Below, one piece after another: positions 14,981-34,565 of a stretch of DNA of 51,095 bases. The stretch is from positions 1 through 51,095 of the IMG/VR virus record IMGVR_UViG_3300040801_001309; one strand, given 5' to 3'. The notes beneath the pieces are model-generated. The model did not search any database. It saw nothing but the letters and a program-made list of their open reading frames with translations, and was not told the origin of the DNA. Made by a program: the position numbers and the translations under genes. Each line of letters opens with the position of its first letter. Positions within the stretch are counted from its first letter, which is position 1. Source of the DNA: a virus.

Positions 14981-15087
14981 CAAAATGTTAGCTACTAATT
15001 ACTTAGTAGTTCAGACTATATCATCTTGACAATTGTGCCAAGAATGTCGTGTAGTCGTTTGCTAGTAGTTATATATTTTAAGTATTG

Positions 15088-15690: not shown

Positions 15691-15726
15691 CGTTTTCTAT
15701 TGCTAGAAAACGGGACACAAAAGTTT

Positions 15727-17353: not shown

Positions 17354-18955
17354 TTAAATTTCATTATAAATTCGTTCTTTTAAAGCATCATAATTATATA
17401 GTATATCAGACGCATATCTCAACATTTTACCGTTGGTATCATTCAATCTGAATAATTCATCATCACCTTCGAATAAACTACTTCCAGATAACGGTGGATT
17501 TGTATTAATTAAAATAGTTCTTCCATCAACTCCTAATTTCTTAATTGATAGTTTATAATCATTTATATCCGGTCCAGAATTATGATGTTCATCTGTAATA
17601 AATATTACAGCATTTGTATCAAATCCTTTCTCTCTACTATCTTCAATAGCAAATTCAAGACCACCAATACAATCTGTTGCGCTAACTCCATATTTATCTT
17701 TAATATATGGATGTAGTTCACTAATAAATTTATTTACAAATTCATTAGGAGCTAACTCAATATATTGTGAAAACCATTCAGTTTCATCTCCTTTTACATG
17801 AGTATCACCAAAAATGTAAAATTTAGAATTATAAAATATATTTTTCATTAATGCTAAATATTTAACAGATTTCAAAAGATTATCACTAAACATTGATCCA
17901 CTAACATCAAATACAATTACAGGATTAACCCAAGATTCAAAGTTGAATAAACAGTGATCTTTGAGAATATTGTCAATTGCATCTAATATAGCTGGATGGA
18001 TATATGGATAACCCATTGCACCACTGTAATAGTTATAGTGAGCAGGAACCATAATAAGTTCCATTGGATCTATCATTCTGTCATTGCCACTTGTAAATAC
18101 ACTTCTTAATCTATTTTCAAGTTTTGTTGCATCTTCACCATTGAGTTTTGTAAGATTTGCCAGTAACTCTTTAATAGCAATTTTGTCAATATTTATACTT
18201 ATAAACTCTTTAGCAGCAGATGTTGATACATTTGTATCTGACAAGACTGCTCTTAGGCTTTCGCCTTTAGTAACCTTACCAGTTTCTTCATCAACTTCAA
18301 CTTTGAGTGCTGCACCACTATTATTCTTAATAATAGACAAGTACAGATCAGACATTTTATCGTCTACTGGTTTAGGTTGAAATCCATGAATCAAGTTTAC
18401 AAGTTTGATCCATTTTTTCTTCATCTTTCTATTTTTCAAAGTATGTTCTTTGAAAGACATAAGACTATCCCGCATAGCATTGTATGCCCACTGTGGAAGC
18501 ATTCTTTTTGCCCAACCAGTTTTCCATCTTTCATTGTGTAGATCAAATTCCGGATGAAGATTATGATAATAACAAATAGCATTTGTTATGAAGTCCGGTC
18601 TTGTAAAAATGTTTCTAATCAATTTAGATAGGACTTTTTGATCACCATTATCAATGGCTCTTGTAATAGCAACAGTTGGCCCAAGACGCATACCGATTGT
18701 CATTGCAACAAAATTGATCATACCATAAAAATATTTTGGATCATTTCTATGAACCAAGTCAATAAGACGCTCAATATTCTGTAACTTATCAGTGTCGCTG
18801 TAATAAAAGTTTCTCTCTGTATCCAGTAATTTTGCCTGGTTTAGATTGCTTTTTCTTGGTCTGAAACTCAAAAGACTAACTATTAACTGTTTGTCTTCAG
18901 GCATTTTAATATCAGTTGTTGCTGTTGTTACACGATTTGCTTTAGGATTAAACAT
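17354..18955 (-). CDS. rsr: Ro60-like protein (TROVE domain plus vWA domain)
   Basis: 533 aa. TROVE-like segments are IFTRPDFITNAICYY and KKWIKLVNLIHGFQPKP (compare Ro ..HPKP). The C-terminal vWA domain has the MIDAS motif VIVFDVSGSM at about residue 350, matching Ro60 architecture. Confidence 0.75.
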   Translation of the reverse strand: MFNPKANRVTTATTDIKMPEDKQLIVSLLSFRPRKSNLNQAKLLDTERNFYYSDTDKLQNIERLIDLVHRNDPKYFYGMINFVAMTIGMRLGPTVAITRAIDNGDQKVLSKLIRNIFTRPDFITNAICYYHNLHPEFDLHNERWKTGWAKRMLPQWAYNAMRDSLMSFKEHTLKNRKMKKKWIKLVNLIHGFQPKPVDDKMSDLYLSIIKNNSGAALKVEVDEETGKVTKGESLRAVLSDTNVSTSAAKEFISINIDKIAIKELLANLTKLNGEDATKLENRLRSVFTSGNDRMIDPMELIMVPAHYNYYSGAMGYPYIHPAILDAIDNILKDHCLFNFESWVNPVIVFDVSGSMFSDNLLKSVKYLALMKNIFYNSKFYIFGDTHVKGDETEWFSQYIELAPNEFVNKFISELHPYIKDKYGVSATDCIGGLEFAIEDSREKGFDTNAVIFITDEHHNSGPDINDYKLSIKKLGVDGRTILINTNPPLSGSSLFEGDDELFRLNDTNGKMLRYASDILYNYDALKERIYNEI

Positions 18956-20018
18956 TGGTATTCTCCTTTGATTTTATCACAACCTGTTTATATAATCTTC
19001 GTTTTTGATGGAATGATAGACTATCCCACTTACTAACAACAAAATTAGAGTAATTACTATTTTCACAAAGATGGTTTCTTTCTTCTTTTGATAAATCGTC
19101 CCATTTGTCAATAATATCATCATTATATTTGTTATATTCACAAAAGTATATTTTTTGTCGAAATGTTAATTCATCCCACTTACTTACGATAAAGTCTGTA
19201 TAATTGATATTAGAGCAAAGAGATTCCTTTTGCCCCTTTGATAATATATTCCATTGTTCAGCAATAAACTCACTATATTTAACATTGGCACATGCTTTAT
19301 TTTTTTGGAATGTGTCCAGTTTATCCCACATTCCAATAATAAAATCACTATATGCATTATTATAGCACAGATTTGTTTTTTGTGTTACTGATAATGCATC
19401 CCATTTATCGACAATTGATTGAATATAATCACTAACGTAACATAAAATTTCTTTTTGTCTATCTGTTAGTTCATCCCACTTAGTTGCAAGAAATTCACAA
19501 TACTCTTTATTACAACTTAAGTTGTTTCGTTGCATATTTGATAGGTTGTCCCAATCATTAACAATGATATCGTTATATGAACTATCGTAACATAAAATTT
19601 CTTTTTGTCTATTTGATAGTTCATTCCATTTTTCAACAATAATTTCATGACATATATCATGCGTATTTTTGATTTCATCCCAACGGTCAAGTATTAATCT
19701 ACTATCAATTTGTTCGTCTGTAAGATAAAATCGTTTACATCTGAATTTTGATTCGCCAGGTATAATTGTTATATAATTATTTTCTATTGGAACATAGCAT
19801 TTGTACACAGGTCCATTCATGAATAACAATGCTGAAAGTGGATTGTCAAATAAATTTAAACCATATGAACATAATTTATTTATATTGGTATCAACAACAA
19901 GTGATTCATACCAATGATTAGTATCATATGTAAAATTATCTTTAACGTTTCGCATATCTTTTCTAAAGACTTTATATGCAATGTAGCACTGTGTATTTTG
20001 AAATAATATCGTTTCCAT
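18948..20018 (-). CDS. Tandem 25-aa repeat protein
   Basis: The start is moved to the ATG preceded by GAAAGGAATAAACTT. The C-terminal two thirds consist of WDxLSxxQKxxLCxNxxYxxFIVxK repeats. Confidence 0.6.
   Translation of the reverse strand: METILFQNTQCYIAYKVFRKDMRNVKDNFTYDTNHWYESLVVDTNINKLCSYGLNLFDNPLSALLFMNGPVYKCYVPIENNYITIIPGESKFRCKRFYLTDEQIDSRLILDRWDEIKNTHDICHEIIVEKWNELSNRQKEILCYDSSYNDIIVNDWDNLSNMQRNNLSCNKEYCEFLATKWDELTDRQKEILCYVSDYIQSIVDKWDALSVTQKTNLCYNNAYSDFIIGMWDKLDTFQKNKACANVKYSEFIAEQWNILSKGQKESLCSNINYTDFIVSKWDELTFRQKIYFCEYNKYNDDIIDKWDDLSKEERNHLCENSNYSNFVVSKWDSLSFHQKRRLYKQVVIKSKENTNV
18990..19682 (-). repeat. About nine in-frame 75-bp tandem coding repeats
   Basis: Trp residues recur every 25 aa, at ORF residues 157, 182, 207, 232, 257, 282, 307, 332 and 357. 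Confidence 0.8.
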
Positions 20019-20312
20019 AAGTTTATTCCTTTCACATGTGGGATAGCAGTGAACTGATATCCCATTGAAAATATTATTTGAATGTTTCGAATTCACTGTC
20101 CCAATACGTTACTGCATATTCGCACATGGCTATTAGATATACAGGGAATACAACGTAGAATCCTGCTGTGTTGATTACTTTGAGAAATAAGTCAACACCT
20201 TTTGTATTGGACATGTCTTTTATTTCAATGATCCATTTCTTCGCAAACATATATCCAATAAGGACATATCAGAATGTTGCAAATACGCCCAAAATCATCA
20301 GTATTAGTTGTA

Positions 20313-20645
20313 TCATTCCGATTTTCCTTTCTTCTGTGTTTTGCCCTTTTTGAACTTGGGCTTTGATTTGTTTTCAACATGGTTGTCATCTTTAACAGGG
20401 ACATCTTCTTTCTTTTTTGCAACAATATCCCATCTCTGAGCATCGGCCAAAATTGCTTTGTCAGATGATCGGACATATCTTTTTAGCCCATTGGGATGAT
20501 TCTTCCCATTTGTCACTGTGTATGGGCCGTCACCAGTGTGATGATGCTCAAACCATTTTTTCGCAACTTTCGCAGACTCCCGTGATGGGAATCCGTCTGT
20601 GACAATCTTTCCTGTTCCGTCCGCTACAGCGTATGCTCCTGCCAT
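20313..20645 (-). CDS. Hypothetical protein with Lys-rich tail (110 aa), GC-elevated
   Basis: RBS GAAAGGAGAGAAACT-ATG, with an ATATAGAAAT box upstream. Confidence 0.6.
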   Translation of the reverse strand: MAGAYAVADGTGKIVTDGFPSRESAKVAKKWFEHHHTGDGPYTVTNGKNHPNGLKRYVRSSDKAILADAQRWDIVAKKKEDVPVKDDNHVENKSKPKFKKGKTQKKGKSE

Positions 20646-20701
20646 AGTTTCTCTCCTTTCATGGTTGTTTAAATAAAAAGTTATACTACACTGATTTGTT
20701 C

Positions 20702-20711
20702 ATTTCTATAT
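20702..20711 (-). promoter_or_regulatory. ATATAGAAAT promoter-like box
   Basis: Minus-sense GGCATATATAGAAATGAAC lies upstream of 20645. Confidence 0.45.
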
Positions 20712-20740
20712 ATGCCTATTGAAAACTAAAAATTTGTGTC

Positions 20741-20775
20741 AATAAAAAAATTGTAGTTATGATATTCATAACTAC
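20741..20775 (-). terminator. Terminator at the downstream end of the tRNA cluster
   Basis: GTAGTTATGA-ATA-TCATAACTAC hairpin followed by AATTTTTTTATT. Confidence 0.65.
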
Positions 20776-20836
20776 ATGTGTATCGTTGGAAGCCTTTAAT
20801 ATATAAGGCTTTCTATTTTGTCGATATTGTTTAAAG

Positions 20837-20908
20837 CTGGGACGGAGGGCCATGATCCCCCATGACAAGATTCAAAATCTTGCATCCTACCAATTGGATG
20901 ACATCCCA
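20837..20908 (-). tRNA. tRNA-Gln(TTG): tRNA-Gln (anticodon TTG)
   Basis: Manual cloverleaf. Acceptor is TGGGATG/CGTCCCA and the anticodon arm is CAAGA-TTTTGAA-TCTTG. The T-loop ATCATGG is non-canonical. Confidence 0.7.
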
Positions 20909-20912
20909 ATGA

Positions 20913-20984
20913 TTGGACGTGTGAGGATCAAACTCACGTAATCACGATTAAAAGTCGTGTGCCTAGTCACTCGGCCAACGTCCA
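20913..20984 (-). tRNA. tRNA-Lys(TTT): tRNA-Lys (anticodon TTT)
   Basis: Acceptor TGGACGT/ACGTCCA. Anticodon arm CACGA-CTTTTAA-TCGTG. T-arm GTGAG-TTTGATC-CTCAC. Confidence 0.7.
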
Positions 20985-21116
20985 AGAATAACCCACTTGA
21001 TTTGTGCTTCTGATAGAGAGGCATAGCAGGTATTGTTCAGCAACTATTACTAGATGCTATTTAAAGCCTCGATGGTTTAATTTATTGTTAAACCCTTGTC
21101 GATATACAATAATGTT

Positions 21117-21782
21117 TTATATTGAAATATGTTTCCACTTTTCACCGCTTTTAATACTTTTAATAATATATTTTGAAACATTAAGAGTTTTTTCTATGTA
21201 CCAACTTTTAACTCCTTGGGAAATCATTTTTTTAATTTGTTTTGCGACATCTTCTGTTATAATGGCGTTGCCATGTTTTTCACCAAAACAATGTAAATTA
21301 GTTTTAACAGCATGATCAATATTTGCTCTATGTGTTACAAGTTCTAAATTGTCAGGTTTATTATTTTGTTTATTTCCATCAATGTGATTGATCTCTAAAT
21401 TTTGATCTAATTGCCCTTTAAATTTTCGATATATTATTCTATGAACTTTCAAAAGTTTATTTTTATATCGTTGAACATGATATCGATTATCGTTTAATCT
21501 ATCACTTCTTCGCCAAGGATATGTTTTTCCATTAGCTGGAAATCCACTAAGGGGAACATTTGTCAAGATAGTTCCATCTTCCCGAATATCATATTGTGGG
21601 TCTGTAATGAGTTGTTCAATTAAATAATCATGCGAACCAGTATTTTTATTATTGCACCAATAATGTGCTGTACTTTTTGTTACTCTAAATTTATTAGCAA
21701 TCTGCTGATATGACCATCCCTGATTTCTTAATTCTCTTGCTTCTTCTTTTATTTCTTCTGAATATCTGTTACCTGTTGACAT
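21117..21782 (-). CDS. HNH homing endonuclease (paralogue 1)
   Basis: N-terminal HTH is WSYQQIANKFRVTKSTAHYW. The HNH core is EINHIDGNKQNNKPDNLELVTHRANIDHA. Confidence 0.8.
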   Translation of the reverse strand: MSTGNRYSEEIKEEARELRNQGWSYQQIANKFRVTKSTAHYWCNNKNTGSHDYLIEQLITDPQYDIREDGTILTNVPLSGFPANGKTYPWRRSDRLNDNRYHVQRYKNKLLKVHRIIYRKFKGQLDQNLEINHIDGNKQNNKPDNLELVTHRANIDHAVKTNLHCFGEKHGNAIITEDVAKQIKKMISQGVKSWYIEKTLNVSKYIIKSIKSGEKWKHISI

Positions 21783-21789
21783 TTATTTC

Positions 21790-22389
21790 ATAGTTTCTCC
21801 TTTATAATGATTTTGAAGTCTAGAACTTTCACTTCTATCCACTGCTTAATCCATTAAGCTACATCGAGAAAAATTGTTGTCACTGTCCAGATACAGATTT
21901 AAGAGCAAACGCTCACCACAATCTTTATACATTAAGTGTATCAATAACTTAACAAAGTGGCCGCACTCTCCCCTATCTGGTGGGATTTGATTGTCTTTCG
22001 CTTCCACAGTGACTAGTAATCTAATCTTTGTGATATCCCAAAGAACCTATTGACATAACGTCGTAATGTAAACTCCACTAATAGGTCAGTGGCATGGTAC
22101 TTTCGCCGGATTACTATTTTCGACGACATACAGGACATATCATAAATGATATCGGCATATGGCATCTAAAGGGTGACTTACGGGTAACGAGCCCGTGCAT
22201 ACAAGAGCCACAATCTTGCGTGTTTCCACTTCACCAAAGTCACCATAAAATAGTCCAGAGCATTTTACGCGCGCTTCATGCTCTGTTGTCACACTAATTA
22301 ATACCATATGGTAGCTACTTCCACTGGGTTATTAATTCCCATAAACGCTTGTACGGTCCATATAGGTTATCGTAAGTGTTAGACTAAAG
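21790..22389 (-). ncRNA. Group I-like ribozyme region A, upstream of HNH paralogue 1
   Basis: About 600 nt, non-coding, GC-elevated and rich in GNRA hairpins. R-like CTCTGGACTATTT is at 22243-22261. The P8 hairpin CTTTG..CAAAG is at 22026-22043. S-like GATTACTAGTCAC is at 22007-22021. Together they give a P7 with a bulge. Confidence 0.5.
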
Positions 22390-22462
22390 TACCGAGAACT
22401 AGGATTGAACTAGTGACTTCACGATTATCAGTCGTGCCTTCTACCAACTGAAGTATCCCGGT
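22390..22462 (-). tRNA. tRNA-Ile(GAT): tRNA-Ile (anticodon GAT)
   Basis: Canonical 73-nt cloverleaf: ACCGGGA/TCTCGGT, CACGA-CTGATAA-TCGTG, ACTAG-TTCAATC-CTAGT. Confidence 0.85.
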
Positions 22463-22790
22463 AAGATATTTTAGCTCCTAATTTATCAAAGCTGTCAACA
22501 ATAGATTCTGTTTCTTCTTTTGTAAATGCACCTAATGATATAGGAATGTTATTAACTATATTTCTTGCATCCCTTAAATTTAATCCTGTAATCTTACCAA
22601 CTTTTTGAATTGTTTGCAGTTTATTATCACCAATAGATGATAATATTAACTCAAATTCAATTCGTTCTTCTGCGTAATCACCATGCCCTGGAATAACAGT
22701 AATAGGTATATTTAACGTAGTTGATAAGTCTTCCAATAGTTTCCCTTCGGATAATGTTTTAATATAATTAATTACGTCGTCATTAGTCAT
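22428..22790 (-). CDS. rplL: Ribosomal protein bL12 (L7/L12) homologue
   Basis: The C-terminal domain EERIEFELILSSIGDNKLQTIQKVGKITGLNLRDARNIVNNIPISLGAFTKEETESIVDSFDKLGAKI aligns by eye with bacterial L7/L12 (TEFDVIL..G.NKV.VIK.VR..TGLGLKEAKDLVE..P..LKEGVSK.DAE.LKK.LEEAGA). The NTD pattern is also similar. The last 12 codons overlap tRNA-Ile. Confidence 0.75.
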   Translation of the reverse strand: MTNDDVINYIKTLSEGKLLEDLSTTLNIPITVIPGHGDYAEERIEFELILSSIGDNKLQTIQKVGKITGLNLRDARNIVNNIPISLGAFTKEETESIVDSFDKLGAKISYRDTSVGRRHD

Positions 22791-22814
22791 TTCAATTTCT
22801 TTTGTAATATGATA

Positions 22815-22905
22815 TGGAGGAGAGTTCCGGGTATGATCCGGAAAGTGCTATTAACACTACTGGTTTTCAAGACCAGCGCAATTATTCCATTTCTGCCAAC
22901 TCTCC
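22815..22905 (-). tRNA. tRNA-Ser(TGA): tRNA-Ser (anticodon TGA), CCA encoded
   Basis: Type II tRNA. Acceptor is GGAGAGT/ACTCTCC and the anticodon arm is CTGGT-CTTGAAA-ACCAG. It has a long variable arm. The 3' end reads TCCA. Confidence 0.8.
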
Positions 22906-22913
22906 ATTTAAAT

Positions 22914-23567
22914 TTATACTTTAACGTGTTTCCAAGAACGTCCTAAGCAAACATTGCTAACAATATCTCTATTAATTCCAAGGATTCTTGATATATCGCT
23001 TTTAGTTTTATTATCGTCAATAAACATTTTTATGATAGTAACAACGTCAGTTTCATTAATAACAGTTTTGAGCAATCCTAATTTTTTAGCGTGCTCTATA
23101 TTTTCTTGTTGTGTTACAAGTTCTAAATTTTCAGGAGTATTATTCTGTTTATCACAATCAATATGATTGATCTCTAAATTAGAATTAAGTTGTCCTTTAA
23201 ATTTTCGATATATAATTCTGTGAACTCTTATGTCTTTTCCACTATATTTGACTGCTTTATAACCATAATCAATATTTTTATCACATCGTCGCCAAGTGTC
23301 TGTAACAAGTTTACCAGTCTTATCTTTCAGAGTCCAAATAGTTCCGTCTTCACGAATATCATATAGTGGATCAATAATAATTTGTTCAATAAGATGGTCT
23401 AATTGTGCTTTATTATCTGATGTATAATTAATATTGTTACACCAGTAATGTGCTGTACTTTTTGTAATTCCATATTTATCAGCAATTTGCTTATATGACT
23501 AACCCTGATTTCTTAATTCTCTTGCTTCTTCTTTTATTTCTTCTGAGTATCTATTACCTGTTGACAT
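22914..23567 (-). pseudogene. HNH homing endonuclease paralogue 2 with one in-frame TAG
   Basis: Full-length reading frame (MSTGNRYSEEIKEEARELRNQG*SYKQIADKYG...EINHIDCDKQNNTPENLELV...). Codon 23 is TAG where both paralogues have TGG (Trp). Confidence 0.75.
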
Positions 23568-23579
23568 TTATACATAGTT

Positions 23580-24107
23580 TCTCCTTATAATTTTTGATAA
23601 AGTGCCAGCTCCGAGATACGAGCTCGGACGGCTCTAAGCCACATGCTTCTAGGGCATGCATGTCTACATTCCATCAAGCTGGCATGGTGACACTGGTGGG
23701 ACACGACCCCACAATCCCTTTCGGGCGCAAGATTTTCTTACCACTACAGTTTTCACTGCCACATAAATGTGTTTGTGGTCTGGACTATATCATCATCTCA
23801 GAATCTGAGATGTTCGGCGCTGTTAATGCTATTATTGGTAACTCTCCTCAAGCAATAGTCTCTGCACCTTCTACGATACTTATTGAGTATTCTCGTAGCT
23901 TGGCTCATGATTACCAGTTAAGGCTTCCATGAATTCACCGAATTCTATCATAGTATCACTACTATGTAGCTCAATAATCAAGTCTTGAGCGTATACATTC
24001 CGCCACAGTGTCATAATAATCTTTTTTTCTATTTAGGGAGTACCAACACGGCTTTCGCCGATGCTTTTGAGACATCTGTGTAACACCATACTCCCTTAAT
24101 GTTGAAT
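23580..24107 (-). ncRNA. Group I-like ribozyme region B, upstream of HNH paralogue 2
   Basis: R element GGTGCAGAGACTATTGC is at 23852-23868. The P8 hairpin CATCTCAG-ATT-CTGAGATG is at 23794-23812. S element GATGATATAGTCC is at 23782-23794, close to the classical AAGAUAUAGUCC. GNRA hairpins include CGGC-GAAA-GCCG and CAGT-GAAA-ACTG. Confidence 0.65.
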
Positions 24108-24179
24108 CGGAGTCGACGGGCCTTGAACCCGCAACATCTGGATCGACAGTCCAGCACCTCTTCCTTGGGTCACGACTCC
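24108..24179 (-). tRNA. tRNA-Asp(GTC): tRNA-Asp (anticodon GTC)
   Basis: Acceptor GGAGTCG/CGACTCC. Anticodon arm CTGGA-CTGTCGA-TCCAG. T-arm GCGGG-TTCAAGG-CCCGT. Confidence 0.8.
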
Positions 24180-24305
24180 AAAATAATATCATATTAGTTT
24201 TTATTCCAGCGTCATAGCATGACTAGACTACCCACTCGTGGGACAGGATTTTAAACACCTGTGTTTCTGGATTGGGATATTTTTTTTGCATATGTAAACT
24301 AATAT
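24180..24305 (-). promoter_or_regulatory. Stem-loop unit U1 (ATATTAG-TTTACATATG-91 nt-CTAATAT-GATATTATTTTG)
   Basis: Perfect 7-bp arms, the conserved box after the 5' arm, and a GATATT..TTTTG flank abutting tRNA-Asp. The loop folds into a three-hairpin junction. Confidence 0.55.
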
Positions 24306-24385
24306 TTTTTTAACTATATGCTGGAAAAATCAACTGTCGTGGATGTCACACAGTCTCGTACTTCAATTGATACATATAGTTGAAG

Positions 24386-24459
24386 TTATCGTGGGTAGGA
24401 TTGAACTACCGACAACGGCCTTATAAGGACCGCGCTCTAACCAACTGAGCTACACGATA
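24386..24459 (-). tRNA. tRNA-Ile(TAT): tRNA-Ile (anticodon TAT)
   Basis: Acceptor TATCGTG/CACGATA. D-arm GCTC-AGTTGGTTA-GAGC. Anticodon arm CGGTC-CTTATAA-GGCCG. T-arm GGTAG-TTCAATC-CTACC. Confidence 0.8.
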
Positions 24460-24466
24460 TTATATA

Positions 24467-24552
24467 AGGTAGGTATGAGACTTGAACTCATAGATGCTAT
24501 TAACACCGACTCCTTAGCAGGGAGCTGCACTACCAAATTATGCGAACCTACC
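24467..24552 (-). tRNA. tRNA-Ser(GCT): tRNA-Ser (anticodon GCT)
   Basis: Type II tRNA. Acceptor GGTAGGT/ACCTACC, anticodon arm GCTCC-CTGCTAA-GGAGT, a long variable arm, and T-loop TTCAAGT. Confidence 0.8.
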
Positions 24553-24745
24553 AATTATGGATCAGGAATTTGTTTGTCCTCTGAATGTTACATCATGACC
24601 ATCTTTATCTACAGCTAATACAATGACCGCAACCAGTTATAGTTGCTTCTTTTTGTTTATTATATCTATTTCTAACAACATCACCAACGTTTAATTGTTG
24701 TTGATTATCTGACCATACCATAAGTATTTCCTTTCATATTTAAAG

Positions 24746-24819
24746 AGCCCTTGGAGGAAACTGAGTCCCCGACCTACGGTTTACAAGACCGTCGCTACTG
24801 CCAACTGAGCTACAAGGGC
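24746..24819 (-). tRNA. tRNA-Thr(TGT): tRNA-Thr (anticodon TGT)
   Basis: Acceptor GCCCTTG/CAAGGGC and anticodon arm ACGGT-CTTGTAA-ACCGT. The T-loop CTCAGTT is non-canonical. Confidence 0.75.
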
Positions 24820-24864
24820 ATAATATAGATAACTACAGTTATCTATTGTATCATGAAAAATGTT

Positions 24865-25539
24865 TTAAAAATCTGTTACATGTTTCCATGAATTAAATTC
24901 ACAAATATCATGAACAGTAGTCTTTTTCAGGTTTAACTTTTTTTGTATTTCGCTTTTGGATAAATTGTGATGATAAAATAATTGTCTTATAGTTTTTACA
25001 ATATCTTCTGTTAATACTGACGTTCCGACTTTTTCACCAAAACAATGCAATTTATTATCAACAGAGTGTTGAATGTTTTCTTGTGATGTAAGTAGTTCTA
25101 AATTTTCAGGAGTATTGTTGTGCTTATTTCCATCAATATGGTTAATCTCTAAATTTGGATCAAGTTTACCTTTAAACTTTCTATAAACTATTCTGTGAAC
25201 TCGAAGGTTTTTTCCACTATATTTAACAGCTTTATAATTCTGATCTCTTTTTTTGTCACACTGTCGCCAAGTATTTGTAACAAGTTTACCAGTTTTATCT
25301 TTGAGAGTCCAGATAGTTCCATCTTCACGAATATCATACAGTGGATCGACTATAATGTTCTCAATAAGATGATCTAATTGTGCTTTACTATTAGAACTGT
25401 AATTAATATTGTTACACCAATAGTGTGTCATACTTTTTGATGTTCCAAATTTATCAGCAATTTGTTTGTATGACCAACCCTGATTTCTTAATTCTCTTGC
25501 TTCTTCTTTTATTTCTTCTGAATATCTATTACCAGCCAT
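24865..25539 (-). CDS. HNH homing endonuclease (paralogue 3)
   Basis: It has the same N-terminus (AGNRYSEEIKEEARELRNQGWSYKQIADKF) and HNH core (EINHIDGNKHNNTPENLELLTSQENIQHS). It is flanked directly by tRNA-Pro and tRNA-Thr. Confidence 0.8.
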   Translation of the reverse strand: MAGNRYSEEIKEEARELRNQGWSYKQIADKFGTSKSMTHYWCNNINYSSNSKAQLDHLIENIIVDPLYDIREDGTIWTLKDKTGKLVTNTWRQCDKKRDQNYKAVKYSGKNLRVHRIVYRKFKGKLDPNLEINHIDGNKHNNTPENLELLTSQENIQHSVDNKLHCFGEKVGTSVLTEDIVKTIRQLFYHHNLSKSEIQKKLNLKKTTVHDICEFNSWKHVTDF

Positions 25540-25575
25540 TTATACATACGTTCTCCTTTATAATAATTTTGAATA

Positions 25576-25647
25576 TCGAGAATGGATGATTTGCACATCA
25601 GATTGAGACTCCCAAGGTCCCCGTGTTACTATTACACTACATTCTCG
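25576..25647 (-). tRNA. tRNA-Pro(TGG): tRNA-Pro (anticodon TGG)
   Basis: Acceptor CGAGAAT/ATTCTCG and anticodon arm GGGAC-CTTGGGA-GTCTC. The D and T stems are weak. Confidence 0.6.
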
Positions 25648-25658
25648 TTAATGTACTG

Positions 25659-25724
25659 ATCCAGTAGTACTTTTGAGCACCGAGTTTACAGCCCAGTGGG
25701 ATACCAATTGACCATACTACTGGA
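25659..25724 (-). tRNA. Atypical 66-nt tRNA-like gene, anticodon GTA (Tyr)
   Basis: Acceptor is TCCAGTA/TACTGGA and the D-loop is TCAATTGGTA. The anticodon arm is CTGGG-CTGTAAA-CTCGG. Only 13 nt occupy the place of the variable region plus T-arm. Confidence 0.35.
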
Positions 25725-25798
25725 TTAAATGTAAAATATCGAATATGAATATTTGTATGTCCCTGGTTGTGGAACATTTTGCATATGTAATCATATTC
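25725..25798 (-). promoter_or_regulatory. Stem-loop unit U2 (GAATATG-ATTACATATG-34 nt-CATATTC-GATATTTTAC)
   Basis: Perfect 7-bp arms and the conserved box, upstream of the Tyr-like tRNA. Confidence 0.55.
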
Positions 25799-25874
25799 TA
25801 ACCAAACTCCGGTTGGCTATGTTTACCTATATACTATTTGCAGTGATCGATTTACCAAATGTATATAGCTAAAG

Positions 25875-25948
25875 ATGCTGTGGGTAGTTTCGAGCTACCG
25901 ATCTTCGGGTTTGCAATCCGACGCTTGTACCATCTCAGCTACACAGCC
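25875..25948 (-). tRNA. tRNA-Cys(GCA): tRNA-Cys (anticodon GCA)
   Basis: Acceptor GGCTGTG/CACAGCA has a 1-72 mismatch. The anticodon loop is TTGCAAA. The T-arm is GGTAG-CTCGAAA-CTACC. Confidence 0.65.
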
Positions 25949-25960
25949 AATGATTGAATG

Positions 25961-26335
25961 TTATTCAAAATATATGTTCATTATAAAATTTTCTGAAGAT
26001 ATGTTTTCAGTAATAGGATCGCTACAAAGAGCTTCTATCAACATTACTGGCATATCATCAATAATTTCATTTTCAATAACATCTATTTTAAACATATTTC
26101 GTGCTTTAATAATATGTTCTGAACATTCTTGTGTTAATTCTTCAAAATAACTATCTAAATTATCATGATGTATCCCATTAGCTTCATCAGTACATAAGTC
26201 ATTAAACCGTCCATCTATTTTATTACGAAGATCTTTAGATTCTTCAATAAAATTAGCAATAGTCTTATCTTCATTTGACGTGTTAACTATTACAATTGCT
26301 GCAACATTTGAGTCTTCGATATTCAGTAATGTCAT
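25961..26335 (-). CDS. Acidic hypothetical protein (124 aa)
   Basis: D/E-rich ORF embedded in the tRNA cluster. Confidence 0.55.
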   Translation of the reverse strand: MTLLNIEDSNVAAIVIVNTSNEDKTIANFIEESKDLRNKIDGRFNDLCTDEANGIHHDNLDSYFEELTQECSEHIIKARNMFKIDVIENEIIDDMPVMLIEALCSDPITENISSENFIMNIYFE

Positions 26336-26373
26336 GTGTTAGTTCTCCATTTTTATTGTAAATGTATAAAGCA

Positions 26374-26445
26374 TAGTCTCTATCAGGATCGAACTGATGT
26401 TGCCGGATCGAAAATCCGATGTCCTAACCACTAGACGAAGAGACC
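26374..26445 (-). tRNA. tRNA-Glu(TTC): tRNA-Glu (anticodon TTC)
   Basis: Acceptor GGTCTCT/AGAGACT. D-arm GTCT-AGTGGTTA-GGAC. Anticodon arm TCGGA-TTTTCGA-TCCGG. T-loop TTCGATC. Confidence 0.8.
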
Positions 26446-26510
26446 ATGTAGAAAAAATATCGCACAAGTTATAAACAGTATTTCTGATATATGCATATGT
26501 AAACTTGTGC
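26446..26510 (-). promoter_or_regulatory. Stem-loop unit U3 (GCACAAG-TTTACATATG-25 nt-CTTGTGC-GATATTTTTTC)
   Basis: Perfect 7-bp arms and the conserved box, abutting tRNA-Glu. Confidence 0.55.
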
Positions 26511-26564
26511 TTAATGGTTATACCGAAGCCTAGCGCACAAGGCTGCCGACTACCCACATATAAC

Positions 26565-26879
26565 CTATGCAGAAACAGCGTTAAACTGATTCCACATCCA
26601 GTTTGGCATTCCTTTAGGATTACCAAACATATCAAGAAAGCCTTTGAAAATCAATCTTGGAAAACATTTGTGACAACCAGGGTTTCCACAATTGTAATTC
26701 CCATGTCCTGTTTTCAGGGGTTTCTTTTTGCTTCTTTTAAATCTTGTTGAAGATTTTGTTCTACCTTCTTCTCCATATTGTGCATAAAGATCTCTTTTAC
26801 GAGCTTTAGCAGCCATCTTCAAATCTTTTCTTCTTAATTTTGCTCTTGCTCTTGAACCTTTTCCACCACGTAGTGCCAT
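26565..26879 (-). CDS. Highly basic small protein with Cys/His knuckle (104 aa)
   Basis: K/R-rich N-terminal half and the motif HGNYNCGNPGCHKC. RBS GAAAGGAC. The leader contains the tRNA-like element. Confidence 0.6.
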   Translation of the reverse strand: MALRGGKGSRARAKLRRKDLKMAAKARKRDLYAQYGEEGRTKSSTRFKRSKKKPLKTGHGNYNCGNPGCHKCFPRLIFKGFLDMFGNPKGMPNWMWNQFNAVSA

Positions 26880-26927
26880 CTGTTATCAAAGTCCTTTCAT
26901 GTTATATATTGAAAAAGTAAAATATCG

Positions 26928-27040
26928 GATATGTTTTAGGACCATTGTTCTACCGGACTGAACTACATCCTTCCATTTGGAAAGACGATTGGAATTGAAC
27001 CAATGACATACGGTTTTGTTTTACATATGTAAACATATCC
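26928..27040 (-). ncRNA. YrlA-type (permuted) tRNA-like RNA; stem-loop unit U4
   Basis: The 5'-3' order is as follows. Closing stem GGATATG/CATATCC, then TTTACATATG. A 5-bp anticodon-stem analogue ACCGT/ATGGT, then a 4-5 nt variable loop. A T-arm with loop TTCAATT(C). A 9-bp acceptor-like hairpin CGTCTTTCC-AAAT-GGAAGGATG. Then TA and a canonical D-arm GTTC-AGTCCGGTA-GAAC. Confidence 0.6.
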
Positions 27041-27047
27041 TTTGAAC

Positions 27048-27120
27048 CTGTACAGGCTGGGATCGAACCAGCGACTACGTGGTTAACAGCCACGTCCCAT
27101 GCCAACTTGGGTACTGTACA
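27048..27120 (-). tRNA. tRNA-Asn(GTT): tRNA-Asn (anticodon GTT)
   Basis: Acceptor TGTACAG/CTGTACA. Anticodon arm CGTGG-CTGTTAA-CCACG. T-arm GCTGG-TTCGATC-CCAGC. Confidence 0.85.
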
Positions 27121-27213
27121 ATTGGTGCCACTTTTGTGAATATATTTGTTGGGAGGTTTAAATATATCTTTGTTAATGTTTTAAAGGAGTCCACAAAAGT
27201 AGCATAAAAAGGA

Positions 27214-27272: not shown

Positions 27273-27331
27273 CAAAATAGATCGAATACGTACTTAGCAA
27301 TGGTAAGAAATTATCATATGTAGACGTATTC
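27273..27331 (-). promoter_or_regulatory. Stem-loop unit U5 (GAATACGT-CTACATATG-23 nt-ACGTATTC-GATCTATTTTG)
   Basis: Perfect 8-bp arms and the conserved box. Confidence 0.55.
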
Positions 27332-27418: not shown

Positions 27419-27475
27419 TCAAAATAGATCGATCACGTTATCATTTCAAGTGTATTATCATATGTAAACGTGATC
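27419..27475 (-). promoter_or_regulatory. Stem-loop unit U6 (GATCACGT-TTACATATG-20 nt-ACGTGATC-GATCTATTTTG)
   Basis: Perfect 8-bp arms and the conserved box, abutting tRNA-Met. Confidence 0.55.
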
Positions 27476-27576: not shown

Positions 27577-27682
27577 AATAGAAGAGATCGAACATGCTTA
27601 AGGGTGTGTATGTTTTTAAAATACACGGGAGTTTCACATCATTTTCATTTTAAATAAAATTTAAGCATATGTATGCATGTTC
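27577..27682 (-). promoter_or_regulatory. Stem-loop unit U7 (GAACATGC-ATACATATG-68 nt-GCATGTTC-GATCTCTTCTATT)
   Basis: Perfect 8-bp arms and a variant box. Confidence 0.5.
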
Positions 27683-29361: not shown

Positions 29362-29802
29362 TTATCCTAATAGTCTAAGTTTTTGTGTTACTTTGTCAAT
29401 ATTATGTTTATAATCTGGCCCTATCCCTAAACAAGTCAATGTAACAACATTATTGAAATGTGTTAATCCTTTGTCGTATATTAAACAACATTTAATATTA
29501 TTGTTAATACAATCTTCATGGATCTTTAAAAGATCTTCTTCGGTTTTACATTTCAATACTATTTTTACAAAGTCATGTTTGAACCAATATATCATTGGAT
29601 GATTTGTAATGATATACCATATAAGAATTAATGGGTTGATGATTATTGCGGCGGAAAATCTCAAAATTCCTTTGTTATACGGGATAAAATGAGCTAATAC
29701 AGCACCCCAAGAAGCATGTGCAACTTGGGGTGCTATTTTTCCACGACCCATATTTAGGTCGTCCCTCACAATTATAGTTTGTCTGATTTGTTTCGTTGTC
29801 AC
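29362..29802 (-). CDS. pth2: Peptidyl-tRNA hydrolase, PTH2 (archaeal/eukaryotic type) with hydrophobic insertion
   Basis: Matching segments are IIVRDDLNMGRGKIAPQVAHAS, VKIVLKCKTEEDLLKI, IYDKGLTHF, TLTCLGIGP and KVTQKLRLL. An insert of about 30 aa (FSAAIIINPLILIWYIITNHPMIYWF) is present. Confidence 0.7.
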   Translation of the reverse strand: MTTKQIRQTIIVRDDLNMGRGKIAPQVAHASWGAVLAHFIPYNKGILRFSAAIIINPLILIWYIITNHPMIYWFKHDFVKIVLKCKTEEDLLKIHEDCINNNIKCCLIYDKGLTHFNNVVTLTCLGIGPDYKHNIDKVTQKLRLLG

Positions 29803-34074: not shown

Positions 34075-34565
34075 AATATTTAGACATGCGATATGCATAT
34101 CTGAAGTGGAGATGGCGGCTTCGAAGCCGCGTCCGCCCTATTACAAATATACGAATTTACACGCATAGTTCATGTTTAAGTTTCGATTATTAAGGATCAT
34201 GAACAACCCAATTATAATCTAGTTCACAAAATTAGCCTGGATAATACGTGAACTTACTATCCATTGTTCCACAGAAGTCTATCGGATATTTGGTTCAGAT
34301 CTGTGGGGTTCATTCCCAATCCGAGTAGCATTACGCTGCTACAGCAAAGTTATAATCGTCAGCGATTATTTTAAGGTTTGGATTTAACGCTTCGCAGCGA
34401 CGTGAATCATATAAATGTGTTAGTACGTCAAAGTCCAATTCATCCCCATATACTCCAACACTTCTGGAGAGTTATTATTCAATTTTATCTAACAATATAC
34501 ACTTCTGTGTATGATTTTTTCATGATCTTGTAGTACCAAAATAAGATCGTCTTTTTGAAATATGA
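34075..34565 (-). other. About 490-nt ORF-free, GC-elevated, highly structured region (candidate large ncRNA)
   Basis: Many hairpins occur in minus sense. They include CGCT-GCGA-AGCG, GTAGCA-GCGTAA-TGCTAC, AATCG-CTGA-CGATT, GCGGCT-TCGA-AGCCGC, AGTTCAC/GTGAACT, GTTCATG/CATGAAC, and the competing TCGGAT/ATCCGA and CCACAGA/TCTGTGG pairs. Confidence 0.4.

What the first reader, a model, noticed from the sequence alone, without database searches (positions are those of the whole stretch)
26928..27040. Permuted tRNA-like RNA with YrlA (bacterial Y RNA) topology
In minus sense the order is T-arm (loop TTCAATT), then a closed 9-bp hairpin, then TA, then a canonical D-arm GTTC-AGTCCGGTA-GAAC, then A. 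The inner 7 bp of the hairpin occupy exactly the position of an acceptor stem (CGTCTTT../..AAGGATG). The flanks ACCGT and ATGGT pair as an anticodon-stem analogue, with a 4-5-nt variable loop in the right place. The spacing rules of a tRNA core are kept: no nucleotide between the T-stem and position 66, a 2-nt 8-9 linker, and A26. The acceptor is capped by a tetraloop, and the 5'/3' ends emerge where the anticodon loop would be. They are closed by a further 7-bp stem (GGATATG/CATATCC). This is the topology described for YrlA-type Y RNAs, which partner bacterial Ro60. A Ro60 gene lies 8 kb away on the same strand. The element also sits in the 5' leader of the very basic Cys/His-knuckle protein 26565..26879, so a tRNA-mimic autoregulatory or RNase P-processed leader is an alternative.
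Basis: partly seen in the sequence, partly recalled or inferred. Interest (0 to 1): 0.75.

Follow-up and report, generated by a model that had tools for sequence, protein, structure and literature searches.

The report
Phage tRNA-mimic Y RNA with Ro60 partner
This is a small phage RNA whose middle is a tRNA "turned inside out", most likely a divergent YrlA-type Y RNA that works with the phage's own Ro60 protein, and it is one of seven RNAs in this genome that share the same short stem-plus-motif handle.

Summary
Window 27040-26927 (minus strand) contains every tRNA element in circularly permuted order. ARAGORN calls the un-permuted sequence a canonical cloverleaf in 5 of 5 constructs and finds nothing in the native order. 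A covariance model built from this element alone finds homologous cores beside Ro60-family genes in unrelated phage and bacterial contigs, including a YrlA that passes Rfam's threshold. All four helices covary: 93% of cells paired versus 67.5% in shuffles. The 533-aa ORF at 17354-18955 gets no Pfam hit itself, but profile and fold searches place it in the Ro60/TROVE family.

New here: the element is one of seven same-strand modules in the window. Each has a 9-position stem of unique sequence, then UACAUAUG, a variable insert, the 3' strand and a GAU-U tail. Such modules lie upstream of the Ro60 gene in 13 of 16 loci fetched through the protein and in 0 of 169 control loci.

It fails formal YrlA membership: 26.6 bits against a cut-off of 69, no GNCGAA motif, and 8 kb from Ro60. 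It is best described as a new variant of a known kind. Ro60 binding is inferred, not shown. The 5'-leader alternative is not supported.

The parts
27032..27040 (-). Handle stem, 5' strand (GGAUAUGUU). It starts 6 nt after the 3' end of tRNA-Asn.
   Evidence: It forms a perfect 9-bp complement with 26935-26927. The stem has the same length but a different sequence in each of the seven window modules and in about 30 modules in other loci.
27024..27031 (-). Conserved octamer UACAUAUG. Together with the preceding U it contains the YUAY element of YrlA RNAs. It is the candidate Ro60-contact motif.
   Evidence: Positions 1-4, 6 and 8 are invariant in 45 modules. Rfam aligns the octamer of relative L169 to the model's cggCgaAUG positions. 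YUAY is defined in PMC4201824.
27015..27023 (-). Single-stranded linker UAAAACAAA on the 5' side of the internal loop.
   Evidence: It is variable in relatives.
27010..27014 (-). ACCGU, the analogue of the anticodon-stem 3' strand (tRNA positions 39-43). It pairs with 26945-26941.
   Evidence: All 5 pairs of helix 1 show compensatory changes, and 85% of cells are paired. ARAGORN places it as the anticodon stem.
27005..27009 (-). Variable-loop analogue AUGUC (positions 44-48, with G46 and C48).
   Evidence: The G and C are invariant and the U between them is nearly invariant in alignment A5.
26988..27004 (-). T-arm AUUGG-UUCAAUU-CCAAU.
   Evidence: 100% of cells are paired and 3 of 5 pairs covary. 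The T-loop GGUUC.A..CC is conserved.
26966..26987 (-). Acceptor-stem analogue closed by a tetraloop (CGUCUUUCC-AAAU-GGAAGGAUG). The inner 7 bp correspond to the acceptor stem.
   Evidence: All 6 outer pairs covary. ARAGORN uses AAGGAUG/CGUCUUU as the acceptor stem.
26964..26965 (-). UA linker, equivalent to tRNA U8-A9.
   Evidence: Invariant in the 24 aligned cores.
26947..26963 (-). D-arm GUUC-AGUCCGGUA-GAAC, with A14, G15, G18, G19 and A21.
   Evidence: 100% of cells are paired..
26941..26946 (-). A26 analogue plus AUGGU, the analogue of the anticodon-stem 5' strand (positions 27-31).
26936..26940 (-). Linker CCUAA on the 3' side of the internal loop.
26927..26935 (-). Handle stem, 3' strand (AACAUAUCC).
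26917..26926 (-). Conserved 3' tail GAUAUUUUAC.
   Evidence: A GAU + U-rich tail follows all 7 window modules. The tail consensus is G31/A34/U38/U29/U40 of 45. In controls, 0 of 182 octamers have a stem plus a GAU tail.
27047..27121 (-). tRNA-Asn(GUU) immediately 5' of the element. It is the probable co-transcript, and its 3' processing would free the element's 5' end.
17354..18955 (-). Divergent Ro60/TROVE-family protein (533 aa, with MIDAS motif D350-S352-S354). It is the inferred protein partner.
   Evidence: It has no TROVE hit in Pfam. The profile of its close relatives matches PDB 9l5y/9kop at E = 7e-32 over the full length and 1yvp at 1e-11. The AF2 model has pLDDT 82. The top 12 Foldseek hits are all Ro60/TROVE.
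27590..27682 (-). Handle module M1 (GAACAUGC.../...GCAUGUUC, 68-nt insert). It is a sibling RNA.
27431..27475 (-). Handle module M2 (GAUCACGUU/AACGUGAUC, 19-nt insert).
27284..27331 (-). Handle module M3 (GAAUACGU/ACGUAUUC, 23-nt insert).
26462..26510 (-). Handle module M5 (GCACAAGUU/AACUUGUGC, 23-nt insert), just 5' of tRNA-Glu.
25741..25798 (-). Handle module M6 (GAAUAUGA/UCAUAUUC, 33-nt insert).
24191..24305 (-). Handle module M7 (AUAUUAGUU/AACUAAUAU, 89-nt insert). The insert folds as a three-hairpin four-way junction with the same topology, but its loops are not tRNA-like. It lies just 5' of tRNA-Asp.
   Evidence: Model R1 does not hit it.

Best explanation
The element is a phage-encoded, YrlA-type Y RNA of about 114-124 nt with two parts.

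(1) The effector module is a tRNA mimic, a complete class-I tRNA core in circularly permuted order. Its acceptor stem is capped by a tetraloop, and its anticodon stem opens through an internal loop into the handle.

(2) The handle is minimal: a 9-bp terminal stem formed by the RNA's 5' and 3' ends, the octamer UACAUAUG directly after the 5' strand, and a GAU-U-rich 3' tail.

The proposed mechanism has three steps.
- The RNA is transcribed as part of the long minus-strand tRNA-cluster transcript. It is freed by the processing that releases tRNA-Asn 6 nt upstream. This step is inferred.
- The handle docks onto the phage's own divergent Ro60 (17354-18955). This is inferred from co-occurrence.
- The tRNA-like module presents a tRNA shape to tRNA-binding host or phage factors, such as modification enzymes, RNase P, the CCA enzyme, and nuclease or repair factors. 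This would tether Ro60 to them, as Y RNAs tether Ro60 to PNPase in Deinococcus, Salmonella and Thermus phage phiLo. This is by analogy only.

Six sibling RNAs in the same genome carry the same handle with other inserts. They are YrlB-like or carry other effector modules.
For: Shown here:
- The anatomy is exact.
- ARAGORN calls a canonical cloverleaf after un-permuting in 5 of 5 constructs, and nothing in the native order.
- The nucleotides for the tRNA tertiary interactions are all present: U8-A14, the G15:C48 Levitt pair, G18/G19 with U55/C56, U54-A58, G53-C61, and the C13-G22-G46 and U12-A23-A9 triples. This is a direct reading against standard tRNA numbering.
- Rfam YrlA matches the core in the same order.
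- Model R1, built from this element only, scores 40-62 bits on permuted cores next to Ro60 genes on the same strand in viral and bacterial loci. One is L154, whose YrlA passes Rfam's threshold at 74 bits.
- On an independent MAFFT alignment of 24 cores, 93.1% of cells pair versus 67.5% in shuffles and 36-50% in slid controls. There are 134 double-sided changes versus 42 expected, and all four helices are supported.
- The partner protein is in the Ro60/TROVE family.
- Handle modules lie upstream of the Ro60 gene on its strand in 13 of 16 Ro-scan loci, mostly 100-1100 nt away. This includes loci with no tRNAs at all (L009, L010, L133). They occur in 0 of 169 control loci, about 1.38 Mb.
- In pattern scans of viral contigs, the stem-validated hits at the matched site were all on Ro60-encoding contigs. 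The 23 pattern-only hits of the second scan had no complementary stems and no Ro60.
- The closest relative, L001, has a handle-only RNA at the syntenic position after tRNA-Asn.
- The genomic context is an RNA-repair and translation island: Rnl1-type ligase, PTH2, tmRNA and 14 tRNAs.

From the literature:
- YrlA RNAs are bound by Ro60 and are substrates of TruB, DusA, RNase P and the CCA enzyme (PMC4201824).
- Phage Ro60 binds phage Yrl RNAs and host PNPase (PMC12135203).
Against: - No expression or binding data exist for this RNA.
- It scores 26.6 bits against Rfam's 69-bit threshold, and the match is only local.
- The classical Ro-contact motif GNCGAAN0-1G is absent.
- It lies 7,972 nt from Ro60, beyond the 4-kb criterion of Chen et al.
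- The MFE prefers an alternative hairpin to the anticodon-stem analogue.
- The cores in the covariation alignment were collected with a structure-aware model, which biases them towards the structure.
- One lineage of five related viral contigs (L195 and relatives) has a module-like element with no Ro60 in the stretch that was fetched.
- L138 has a Ro60 relative but no module.
- The six near-identical contigs give no independent variation.
Confidence: 0.72

Rival explanations
1. The handle (stem + UACAUAUG + GAU-U tail) is generic punctuation of the phage's non-coding or tRNA region. It could be an RNA-processing signal, a stability signal, or a signal related to a phage promoter. Under this reading the tRNA-like RNA is a stable by-product or an RNase P/Z processing substrate that works independently of Ro60, comparable to the small stable RNAs encoded in the T4 tRNA cluster.
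For: - All seven window modules lie among tRNAs and small ORFs, 5-9 kb from Ro60.
- Several end just 5' of a tRNA (M5, M7), and the finding follows tRNA-Asn by 6 nt.
- Sigma-70-like promoters and terminators are not enriched, so co-transcription and processing are likely.
- A junction (U)AG(U/C)A followed by G is conserved just 5' of the stems, which could be a cleavage site or a start site.
- The octamer contains TATG and is followed by A/T-rich sequence.
Against: - In diverged contigs with no tRNA genes (L009, L010, L133), modules still sit directly upstream of Ro60, and almost nowhere else in about 20 kb.
- The stems covary perfectly, so both strands must be in one RNA. That excludes a role purely as a promoter.
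- Related UAC-type elements occupy the same position in bacterial YrlA-like RNAs next to Ro60.
- Rfam aligns the octamer to the Ro-contact positions of its model.
Confidence: 0.13
2. The element is a cis-acting 5' leader of the basic 104-aa protein (26565-26879). It would act either as a tRNA-mimic autoregulatory site or as an RNase P-processed leader.
For: The element ends 47 nt upstream of the ATG at 26879, which has a plausible AAAGGA ribosome-binding site. No terminator is predicted between them.
Against: - The ORF has no homolog other than identical copies and no family hit.
- Homologous RNAs in L132, L137, L169 and L147 are followed by other modules, by tRNAs or by Ro60.
- Sibling modules precede tRNAs rather than ORFs.
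Confidence: 0.05
3. The element is a non-functional relic of tRNA-gene rearrangement: the 3' half of one tRNA fused to the 5' half of a tandem duplicate.
For: It lies in a dense tRNA cluster containing homing endonucleases and an intron. Tandem tRNAs give weak hits to the same model at 20-23 bits. Tandem duplication is a plausible evolutionary origin.
Against: - The acceptor halves are joined by a neat tetraloop with two extra base pairs.
- All tertiary-interaction nucleotides are intact.
- Homologs with compensatory changes persist in phages whose Ro60 proteins are only about 30% identical.
- The element is embedded in the conserved handle shared by six other RNAs.
Confidence: 0.05
4. It is a genuine permuted or split tRNA gene that is matured into a decoding tRNA, as with the permuted tRNA genes of Cyanidioschyzon merolae.
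For: After un-permuting, the sequence is a perfect cloverleaf by ARAGORN. M. smegmatis YrlA can be cut by RNase P and receive CCA (PMC4201824).
Against: - There is no anticodon loop. The anticodon-stem analogue continues through a 17-nt/5-nt internal loop into the 9-bp handle.
- The tRNA models do not score it.
- No circularisation or splicing pathway of this kind is known in bacteria or phages (my own knowledge).
Confidence: 0.02

Closest known systems
YrlA RNAs (Rfam RF02553; Chen et al. 2014, PMC4201824), including those of mycobacteriophages and other phages
   Same: - The same permuted tRNA-like domain: closing stem, variable loop, T-arm, acceptor-like hairpin, UA, D-arm.
- The same conserved T-loop and D-loop nucleotides.
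- A YUAY element 5' of the domain.
- Encoded on the same strand as a Ro60 ortholog.
- The models cross-detect each other.
   Different: - No outer stem and no GNCGAAN0-1G motif.
- The handle is only a 9-bp stem plus UACAUAUG.
- 26.6 bits against a gathering score of 69.
- 8 kb from Ro60, inside a tRNA cluster.
- Six sibling RNAs share the handle.
YrlB (S. Typhimurium, M. smegmatis): a Ro60-bound Y RNA without a tRNA-like domain
   Same: The window's short modules (M2, M3, M5, M6), the syntenic RNA in L001 and the upstream RNA in L132 keep the Ro-type handle but lack the tRNA module. This mirrors the YrlA/YrlB pairing.
   Different: The motif differs (UACAUAYG rather than GNCGAA). The copy number is much higher: 7 in the window and up to 7 in L137.
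Thermus phage phiLo Ro60 with Yrl1/Yrl2 (PMC12135203; PDB 9KOP, 9L5Y)
   Same: It is a phage-encoded Ro60 with phage-encoded Y-like RNAs upstream of the gene. It is the best sequence-profile and structural match for the window's protein. Its RNAs have a 5'-3' stem flanking a motif-bearing loop.
   Different: The phiLo Yrls carry a CGAA motif, and no tRNA-like module is described. Protein identity is about 14-15% in the structural alignment.
Deinococcus radiodurans Yrn1 and metazoan Y RNAs
   Same: They are modular RNAs: a terminal stem formed by the two ends binds Ro60, and an internal module binds an effector (PNPase).
   Different: The Ro-binding helix is a conserved bulged helix containing GGUCCGA. 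The tRNA-like features of Yrn1 are arranged differently.
Permuted tRNA genes (Cyanidioschyzon merolae) and two-piece (permuted) tmRNA
   Same: The order of the tRNA halves is circularly permuted at the gene level.
   Different: Those genes yield functional, aminoacylatable molecules with free acceptor ends. Here the acceptor is capped and there is no anticodon loop. The window also has a standard one-piece tmRNA at 34104-34447.

Membership tests
YrlA (Rfam RF02553 / Chen et al. 2014) | tRNA-like domain in the order closing stem, V region, T stem-loop, acceptor-like stem-loop, UA, D stem-loop | tested here: met
   Direct reading. The Rfam alignment covers model positions 23-85. ARAGORN on the un-permuted sequence. 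Covariation.
YrlA (Rfam RF02553 / Chen et al. 2014) | Conserved nucleotides allowing the tRNA tertiary interactions, including the 15:48 Levitt pair | tested here: met
   U8, A14, G15:C48, G18, G19, U54, U55, C56, A58 and G53-C61 are present.
YrlA (Rfam RF02553 / Chen et al. 2014) | Score at or above Rfam's gathering threshold (69 bits), full-length match | tested here: not met
   26.6 bits, local match to positions 23-85 of 114. Relatives L137 and L169 reach 34 bits over the full length.
YrlA (Rfam RF02553 / Chen et al. 2014) | GNCGAAN0-1G motif near the 5' end (the presumed Ro60 contact) | tested here: not met
   There is no match within 26917-27046. UACAUAUG occupies the equivalent position.
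YrlA (Rfam RF02553 / Chen et al. 2014) | Conserved YUAY just 5' of the tRNA-like domain | tested here: met
   UUAC at 27032-27029. UAC-type elements are seen at this position in other Ro-adjacent cores.
YrlA (Rfam RF02553 / Chen et al. 2014) | [quoted passage not shown] | tested here: met
   Both are on the minus strand.
YrlA (Rfam RF02553 / Chen et al. 2014) | Encoded within 4 kb of the Ro60 ortholog | tested here: not met
   The gap is 7,972 nt, from 18955 to 26927. It is filled by 12 tRNAs, two HNH endonuclease genes and a group I intron. The criterion is met in relatives: L132 at 323 nt, L137 at 1.3-1.9 kb, and L169 at about 0.6 kb.
YrlA (Rfam RF02553 / Chen et al. 2014) | Not an artefact of two tandem tRNA genes | tested here: met
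   No predicted tRNA overlaps it. Only 32 nt separate tRNA-Asn from the core. The acceptor strands form a closed hairpin.
YrlA (Rfam RF02553 / Chen et al. 2014) | Bound by Ro60 in vivo; carries pseudouridine-55 and dihydrouridine; substrate of RNase P and the CCA enzyme | not testable with these tools
   This needs RIP, EMSA and modification mapping.
Ro60 / TROVE protein (for ORF 17354-18955) | HEAT-repeat ring plus a C-terminal vWA domain with a MIDAS motif; homology to solved Ro60 structures | tested here: met
   Profile against PDB: 9l5y/9kop at 7e-32 over the full length, 1yvp at 1e-11, 2nvo at 2e-5. Foldseek's top 12 hits are all Ro60/TROVE, with TM 0.5-0.6. DxSxS is invariant.
Ro60 / TROVE protein (for ORF 17354-18955) | Pfam TROVE (PF05731) or vWA_Ro60 (PF25045) hit on the protein itself | tested here: not met
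   There is no hit in Pfam, NCBIfam or PHROGs. Only 3 of the 49 aligned sequences hit TROVE and only 5 hit vWA_Ro60.
Canonical tRNA | Contiguous cloverleaf with an anticodon loop and free acceptor ends | tested here: not met
   ARAGORN and the Rfam tRNA model do not call it. The best tRNA score is 12.9 bits, E = 7.
Permuted / two-piece tmRNA | Match to the tmRNA_permuted model; a tag reading frame | tested here: not met
   There is no hit at the element. A standard tmRNA lies at 34104-34447.

The most novel reading that the evidence does not exclude
This Ro60 clade may use an interchangeable RNA toolkit. A minimal docking handle (9-bp stem + UACAUAYG + GAU-U tail, replacing the classical GNCGAA helix) would be fused to different effector inserts: a full tRNA mimic, a degenerate four-way junction, GNRA-hairpin clusters, or almost nothing. 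One phage Ro60 could then be programmed by seven or more RNAs to engage different host RNA-processing or tRNA-directed factors during infection, possibly to counter tRNA-targeting defences.
Probability: 0.3. Interest if true: 0.75.

Novelty: new variant of a known kind. Interest (0 to 1): 0.5.

Why it matters
Y RNAs with tRNA-like modules are known, but what the tRNA mimic is for is still an open question. This lineage gives a clean natural experiment. The same short handle appears with and without the tRNA module, in many copies, always linked to one Ro60 clade, and inside an island of tRNA, tmRNA, RNA-ligase and peptidyl-tRNA-hydrolase genes. That makes three things directly testable with one protein and a handful of short RNAs: the Ro60-contact determinant (the octamer versus the stem), the role of the tRNA module, and a possible link to tRNA damage or repair during infection. 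The work also shows that current Pfam and Rfam thresholds miss both partners of this clade, so phage Ro60/Y RNA systems are probably under-counted.

Tried and rejected
- **No close relative in deposited phages.** blastn of the region and tblastn of the Ro60 candidate found no match. A topoisomerase query gave at most 34.6% identity over about half of the query.
- **No direct family hit for the Ro60 candidate.** Pfam, NCBIfam, PHROGs and a PDB phmmer search found no Ro60/TROVE match. A profile of relatives was needed.
- **The 104-aa basic ORF is an orphan.** It has no homologs and no family hits, so the leader idea could not gain comparative support.
- **GNCGAAN0-1G sites in the window are not Y-RNA candidates.** None is in the element. 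The intergenic GGCGAAAG at 24052 is a GNRA-tetraloop hairpin.
- **The generic "T-loop then D-arm" scan mostly found zero-spacer tandem tRNAs.** It was useful only as a control set, plus a few classical phage YrlAs.
- **L149 and L151 are false positives.** Their 41-bit hits to R1 are tandem tRNAs.
- **The octamer is not unique to this phage clade.** Bacterial Ro-adjacent YrlA-like RNAs carry UACAYAYG or UAC-type variants at the same position. It is therefore best seen as an extended YUAY element.
- **The MFE's alternative hairpin is not conserved.** The pairing ACAUAUG/CGUAUGU is 7 bp in the window and L132, but only 3-5 bp in L137a, L137c and L169 (sequences).
- **The GUU-type handle scan was a null control.** No hit had a complementary stem.
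- **Sigma-70 promoter and terminator scans were uninformative**.
- **The review PMC10870794 is not held in the library**.
Full report
**1. The observation**

The order is ACCGU, AUGUC, the T-arm AUUGG-UUCAAUU-CCAAU, a closed hairpin CGUCUUUCC-AAAU-GGAAGGAUG, UA, the D-arm GUUC-AGUCCGGUA-GAAC, A, and AUGGU. The whole is enclosed by an outer stem.

The outer stem is in fact 9 bp: GGAUAUGUU (27040-27032) pairs with AACAUAUCC (26935-26927).

The RNA folds better than all 200 dinucleotide shuffles, with z = -3.8. The MFE keeps the outer stem, T-arm, acceptor hairpin and D-arm. However, it replaces the anticodon-stem analogue with a local hairpin.

I joined the two halves in tRNA order with an artificial anticodon loop. 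ARAGORN then called a canonical cloverleaf in 5 of 5 constructs: a 7-bp acceptor stem, a 4-bp D stem with a 9-nt loop, a 5-bp anticodon stem, a 5-nt variable loop and a 5-bp T stem with a 7-nt loop. It found nothing in the native order. The nucleotides used for the standard tRNA tertiary contacts are all present.

The element is not called as a tRNA. It cannot be two tandem tRNAs, because only 32 nt separate tRNA-Asn from the core.

**2. The neighbourhood**

The window is a phage-like region with no close relative among deposited phages. All of the following lie on the minus strand:
- 14 tRNAs, a tmRNA and a group I intron
- two HNH endonuclease genes
- a T4 Rnl1-type RNA ligase and a PTH2 peptidyl-tRNA hydrolase
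- replication genes

The element begins 6 nt after tRNA-Asn and ends 47 nt before a 104-aa basic ORF. That ORF has no homologs beyond identical copies.

**3. The Ro60 claim**

The 533-aa ORF at 17354-18955 has no TROVE hit in Pfam and no hit at all in NCBIfam, PHROGs or a PDB phmmer search. An exhaustive HMMER search found 56 relatives of about 500 aa.

A profile of only the closest 15 sequences gave these PDB matches:

| PDB entry | Protein | E-value |
|---|---|---|
| 9L5Y / 9KOP | Thermus phage phiLo Ro60 | 7e-32, end to end |
| 1YVP | Xenopus Ro60 | 1e-11 |
| 2NVO | Deinococcus Rsr | 2e-5 |

The MIDAS motif DxSxS is invariant. An AlphaFold2 model has pLDDT 82 and pTM 0.81. Its top 12 PDB matches are all full-length Ro60/TROVE structures. 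The protein is therefore a divergent member of the Ro60 family. It lies on the same strand as the element, 7,972 nt away.

**4. Homologs of the RNA**

Rfam's YrlA model matches the core at 26.6 bits, model positions 23-85 of 114, in the same order of elements. That is below the 69-bit threshold.

A covariance model built from this element alone (R1) found strong matches beside Ro60-family genes on the same strand:
- L132 scored 59 bits, with the RNA ending 323 nt upstream of the gene.
- L137 has three copies among tRNAs, 1.3-1.9 kb upstream.
- L169, L147 and several viral contigs (L068, L041, L048, L027) also matched.
- Bacterial loci matched too, including L154, whose YrlA passes Rfam's own threshold at 74 bits.

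I aligned 24 such cores with MAFFT, not with the model. The proposed structure pairs 93.1% of cells, against 67.5% in column shuffles and 36-50% when partners are slid. There are 134 double-sided changes against 42 expected. All four helices are supported, including the anticodon-stem analogue, where 5 of 5 pairs have compensatory changes.

One caveat applies. The sequences were gathered with a structure-aware model, which favours sequences that fit the structure.

**5.

Outside the core, the window element, L132 and the L137 copies share three features:
- a long-range terminal stem, different in sequence in each copy
- an octamer UACAUAYG directly after the 5' strand of that stem
- a GAU-U-rich tail directly after the 3' strand

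A scripted search found seven such modules on the minus strand of the window: 27682-27590, 27475-27431, 27331-27284, 27040-26927 (the finding), 26510-26462, 25798-25741 and 24305-24191. Each has a stem occupying exactly 9 positions and usually starting with G. The inserts range from 19 to 89 nt, and all seven have a GAU tail.

In the closest relative, L001 (61% Ro60 identity), the syntenic position after tRNA-Asn holds a handle-only RNA.

In the loci fetched through the Ro60 protein, modules lie upstream of the Ro60 gene on its strand, mostly 100-1100 nt away. They occur in 13 of 16 loci, including contigs with no tRNA genes (L009, L010, L133). In 169 control loci, about 1.38 Mb, no module was found. 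Of 182 control occurrences of the octamer, none combines a stem with a GAU tail.

Two scans ran in the opposite direction, from RNA to protein. In the GAU-type handle scan, the stem-validated hits at the matched site were all on Ro60-encoding contigs. In the GUU-type handle scan, the 23 hits had no complementary stems and no Ro60, so this scan is a null control.

One unexplained exception remains. Five related contigs (L195 and relatives) have a module-like element with no Ro60 in the stretch that was fetched.

**6. What the octamer is**

Chen et al. (PMC4201824) define the YrlA 5' region by two motifs: a GNCGAAN0-1G motif, thought to contact Ro60, and a YUAY element just before the tRNA-like domain.

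The window RNA has no GNCGAA motif. It does have UUAC, formed by the last stem U plus the start of the octamer.

Ro60-adjacent permuted cores in cyanobacteria, Acidobacteriota, Armatimonadota and other groups carry UACAYAYG or close variants at the same relative position. The octamer is therefore an extended YUAY element and is not unique to this clade.

Rfam's full-length alignment of relative L169 nevertheless places UUACAUAUG on the model's cggCgaAUG columns.

What distinguishes this clade is that the outer GNCGAA helix is missing. A 9-bp stem plus the octamer is all that remains of the Ro-binding module. Which nucleotides contact Ro60 cannot be decided in silico.

**7. Mechanism**

The best-supported reading is a modular Y RNA. 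The handle docks to the phage Ro60. The tRNA-like insert presents a tRNA shape to tRNA-recognising factors.

The RNA is probably cut out of the tRNA-cluster transcript. Promoter-like and terminator-like sites are not enriched in the region, and tRNA-Asn ends 6 nt upstream.

Some steps are shown here: the fold, the homology to the YrlA tRNA-like domain, the Ro60-family identity of the protein, and the statistical linkage of handle RNAs to this Ro60 clade.

Other steps are inferred: Ro60 binding, processing, and any effector. By analogy, candidates for the effector are PNPase tethering (Deinococcus, Salmonella, phiLo), or the tRNA enzymes and RNase P that act on YrlA.

The surrounding RNA-ligase, PTH2, tmRNA and tRNA island fits a role in tRNA or RNA quality control or repair during infection. 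That link is speculative.

**8. Rivals**

- **Generic punctuation of the non-coding region, independent of Ro60.** This is the main rival. The tRNA-free loci, where modules sit only in front of Ro60, argue against it.
- **5' leader of the 104-aa ORF.** It has no comparative support.
- **Rearrangement relic.** Covariation and the intact tertiary-contact nucleotides argue against it.
- **A true permuted tRNA gene.** There is no anticodon loop.

**9. Classification**

It works like a YrlA-type Y RNA, and its tRNA-like domain is homologous to that of YrlA. It fails three formal YrlA criteria: the Rfam threshold, the GNCGAA motif and the 4-kb distance rule. It also belongs to a multi-copy handle family that has not been described in the papers I could read. 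I therefore file it as a new variant of a known kind, with moderate interest.

Noticed in passing
window 27682-27590, 27475-27431, 27331-27284, 26510-26462, 25798-25741, 24305-24191 (all minus strand): Six further RNAs share the same handle: a 9-position stem of unique sequence, UACAUAUG, an insert, the 3' strand and a GAU-U tail. M7 (24305-24191) has a three-hairpin four-way-junction insert with the same topology as the tRNA-like core, but its loops are not tRNA-like.
   Followed up: yes
L132 9436-9506 and 9546-9678; L131, L134: Tandem Y-like RNAs upstream of Ro60 share nearly identical 5' parts (GGAUUACAUAUGCCGCUCCUUCGGGAGCAU) and 3' parts, but only one carries the tRNA-like insert. This looks like a natural YrlA/YrlB pair. 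Other long inserts (L131 96-232, L134 9438-9576) are clusters of GNRA/UUCG-type hairpins instead.
   Followed up: partly
5 nt upstream of handle stems, e.g. L009 8856-8860, L133 348-352, L137 1726-1730: A junction (U)AG(U/C)A followed by the first stem G is conserved just 5' of the modules in Ro-adjacent loci. In the window it reads ...UA/AA then G. It could be a processing site or a transcription start context.
   Followed up: no
window 23761-23989 (minus); also L001 4141-4372 and L003 10359-10587: A group I intron (Rfam 86 bits) lies inside the tRNA cluster and is conserved in the relative L001. The interrupted gene was not identified.
   Followed up: no
window 24036-24095 (minus): A roughly 60-nt structured hairpin lies between tRNA-Asp and the group I intron: GGGAGUA...UACUCCC enclosing a CGGC-GAAA-GCCG tetraloop hairpin.
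   Followed up: no
window 34104-34447 (minus): A phage-encoded one-piece tmRNA (Rfam 98 bits).
   Followed up: no
window 21117-21782 and 24865-25539 (minus): Two paralogous HNH_3 homing-endonuclease-like ORFs with N-terminal HTH domains are interspersed among the tRNAs. They probably explain why the Y RNA genes are displaced 5-9 kb from Ro60.
   Followed up: partly
window 14084-14983 and 15703-16974 (minus); 37073-38404 (minus): Family B DNA polymerase is split into separate ORFs, with the exonuclease and polymerase parts separated by intervening sequence. A 443-aa ORF carries an intein splicing domain.
   Followed up: no
window 12493-13620 and 29362-29802 (minus): A T4 Rnl1-type RNA ligase and a PTH2 peptidyl-tRNA hydrolase flank the Ro60/tRNA island. 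The same pair is present in the relative L001.
   Followed up: partly
L195, L197, L198, L202, L213 (minus strand, e.g. L195 about 2441): Five related viral contigs carry a module-like element (UUAUUGAA-UACAUAUG-50 nt-UUCAAUGA-GAU) with no Ro60-family ORF in the fetched stretch. This is either an exception to the Ro60 linkage or Ro60 lies outside the fetched stretch.
   Followed up: no
L147 410-479 and 556-628: A viral contig with 25 tRNAs has two permuted tRNA-like cores about 5.5 kb upstream of its Ro60-family gene on the same strand. This is the same dispersed layout as the window. Their 5' element is UACAAC/UACAUC rather than the full octamer.
   Followed up: partly
window 20991-21030 (minus): A sub-threshold match to the Rfam abiF RNA (26.8 bits against a threshold of 37) lies next to tRNA-Lys.
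   Followed up: no
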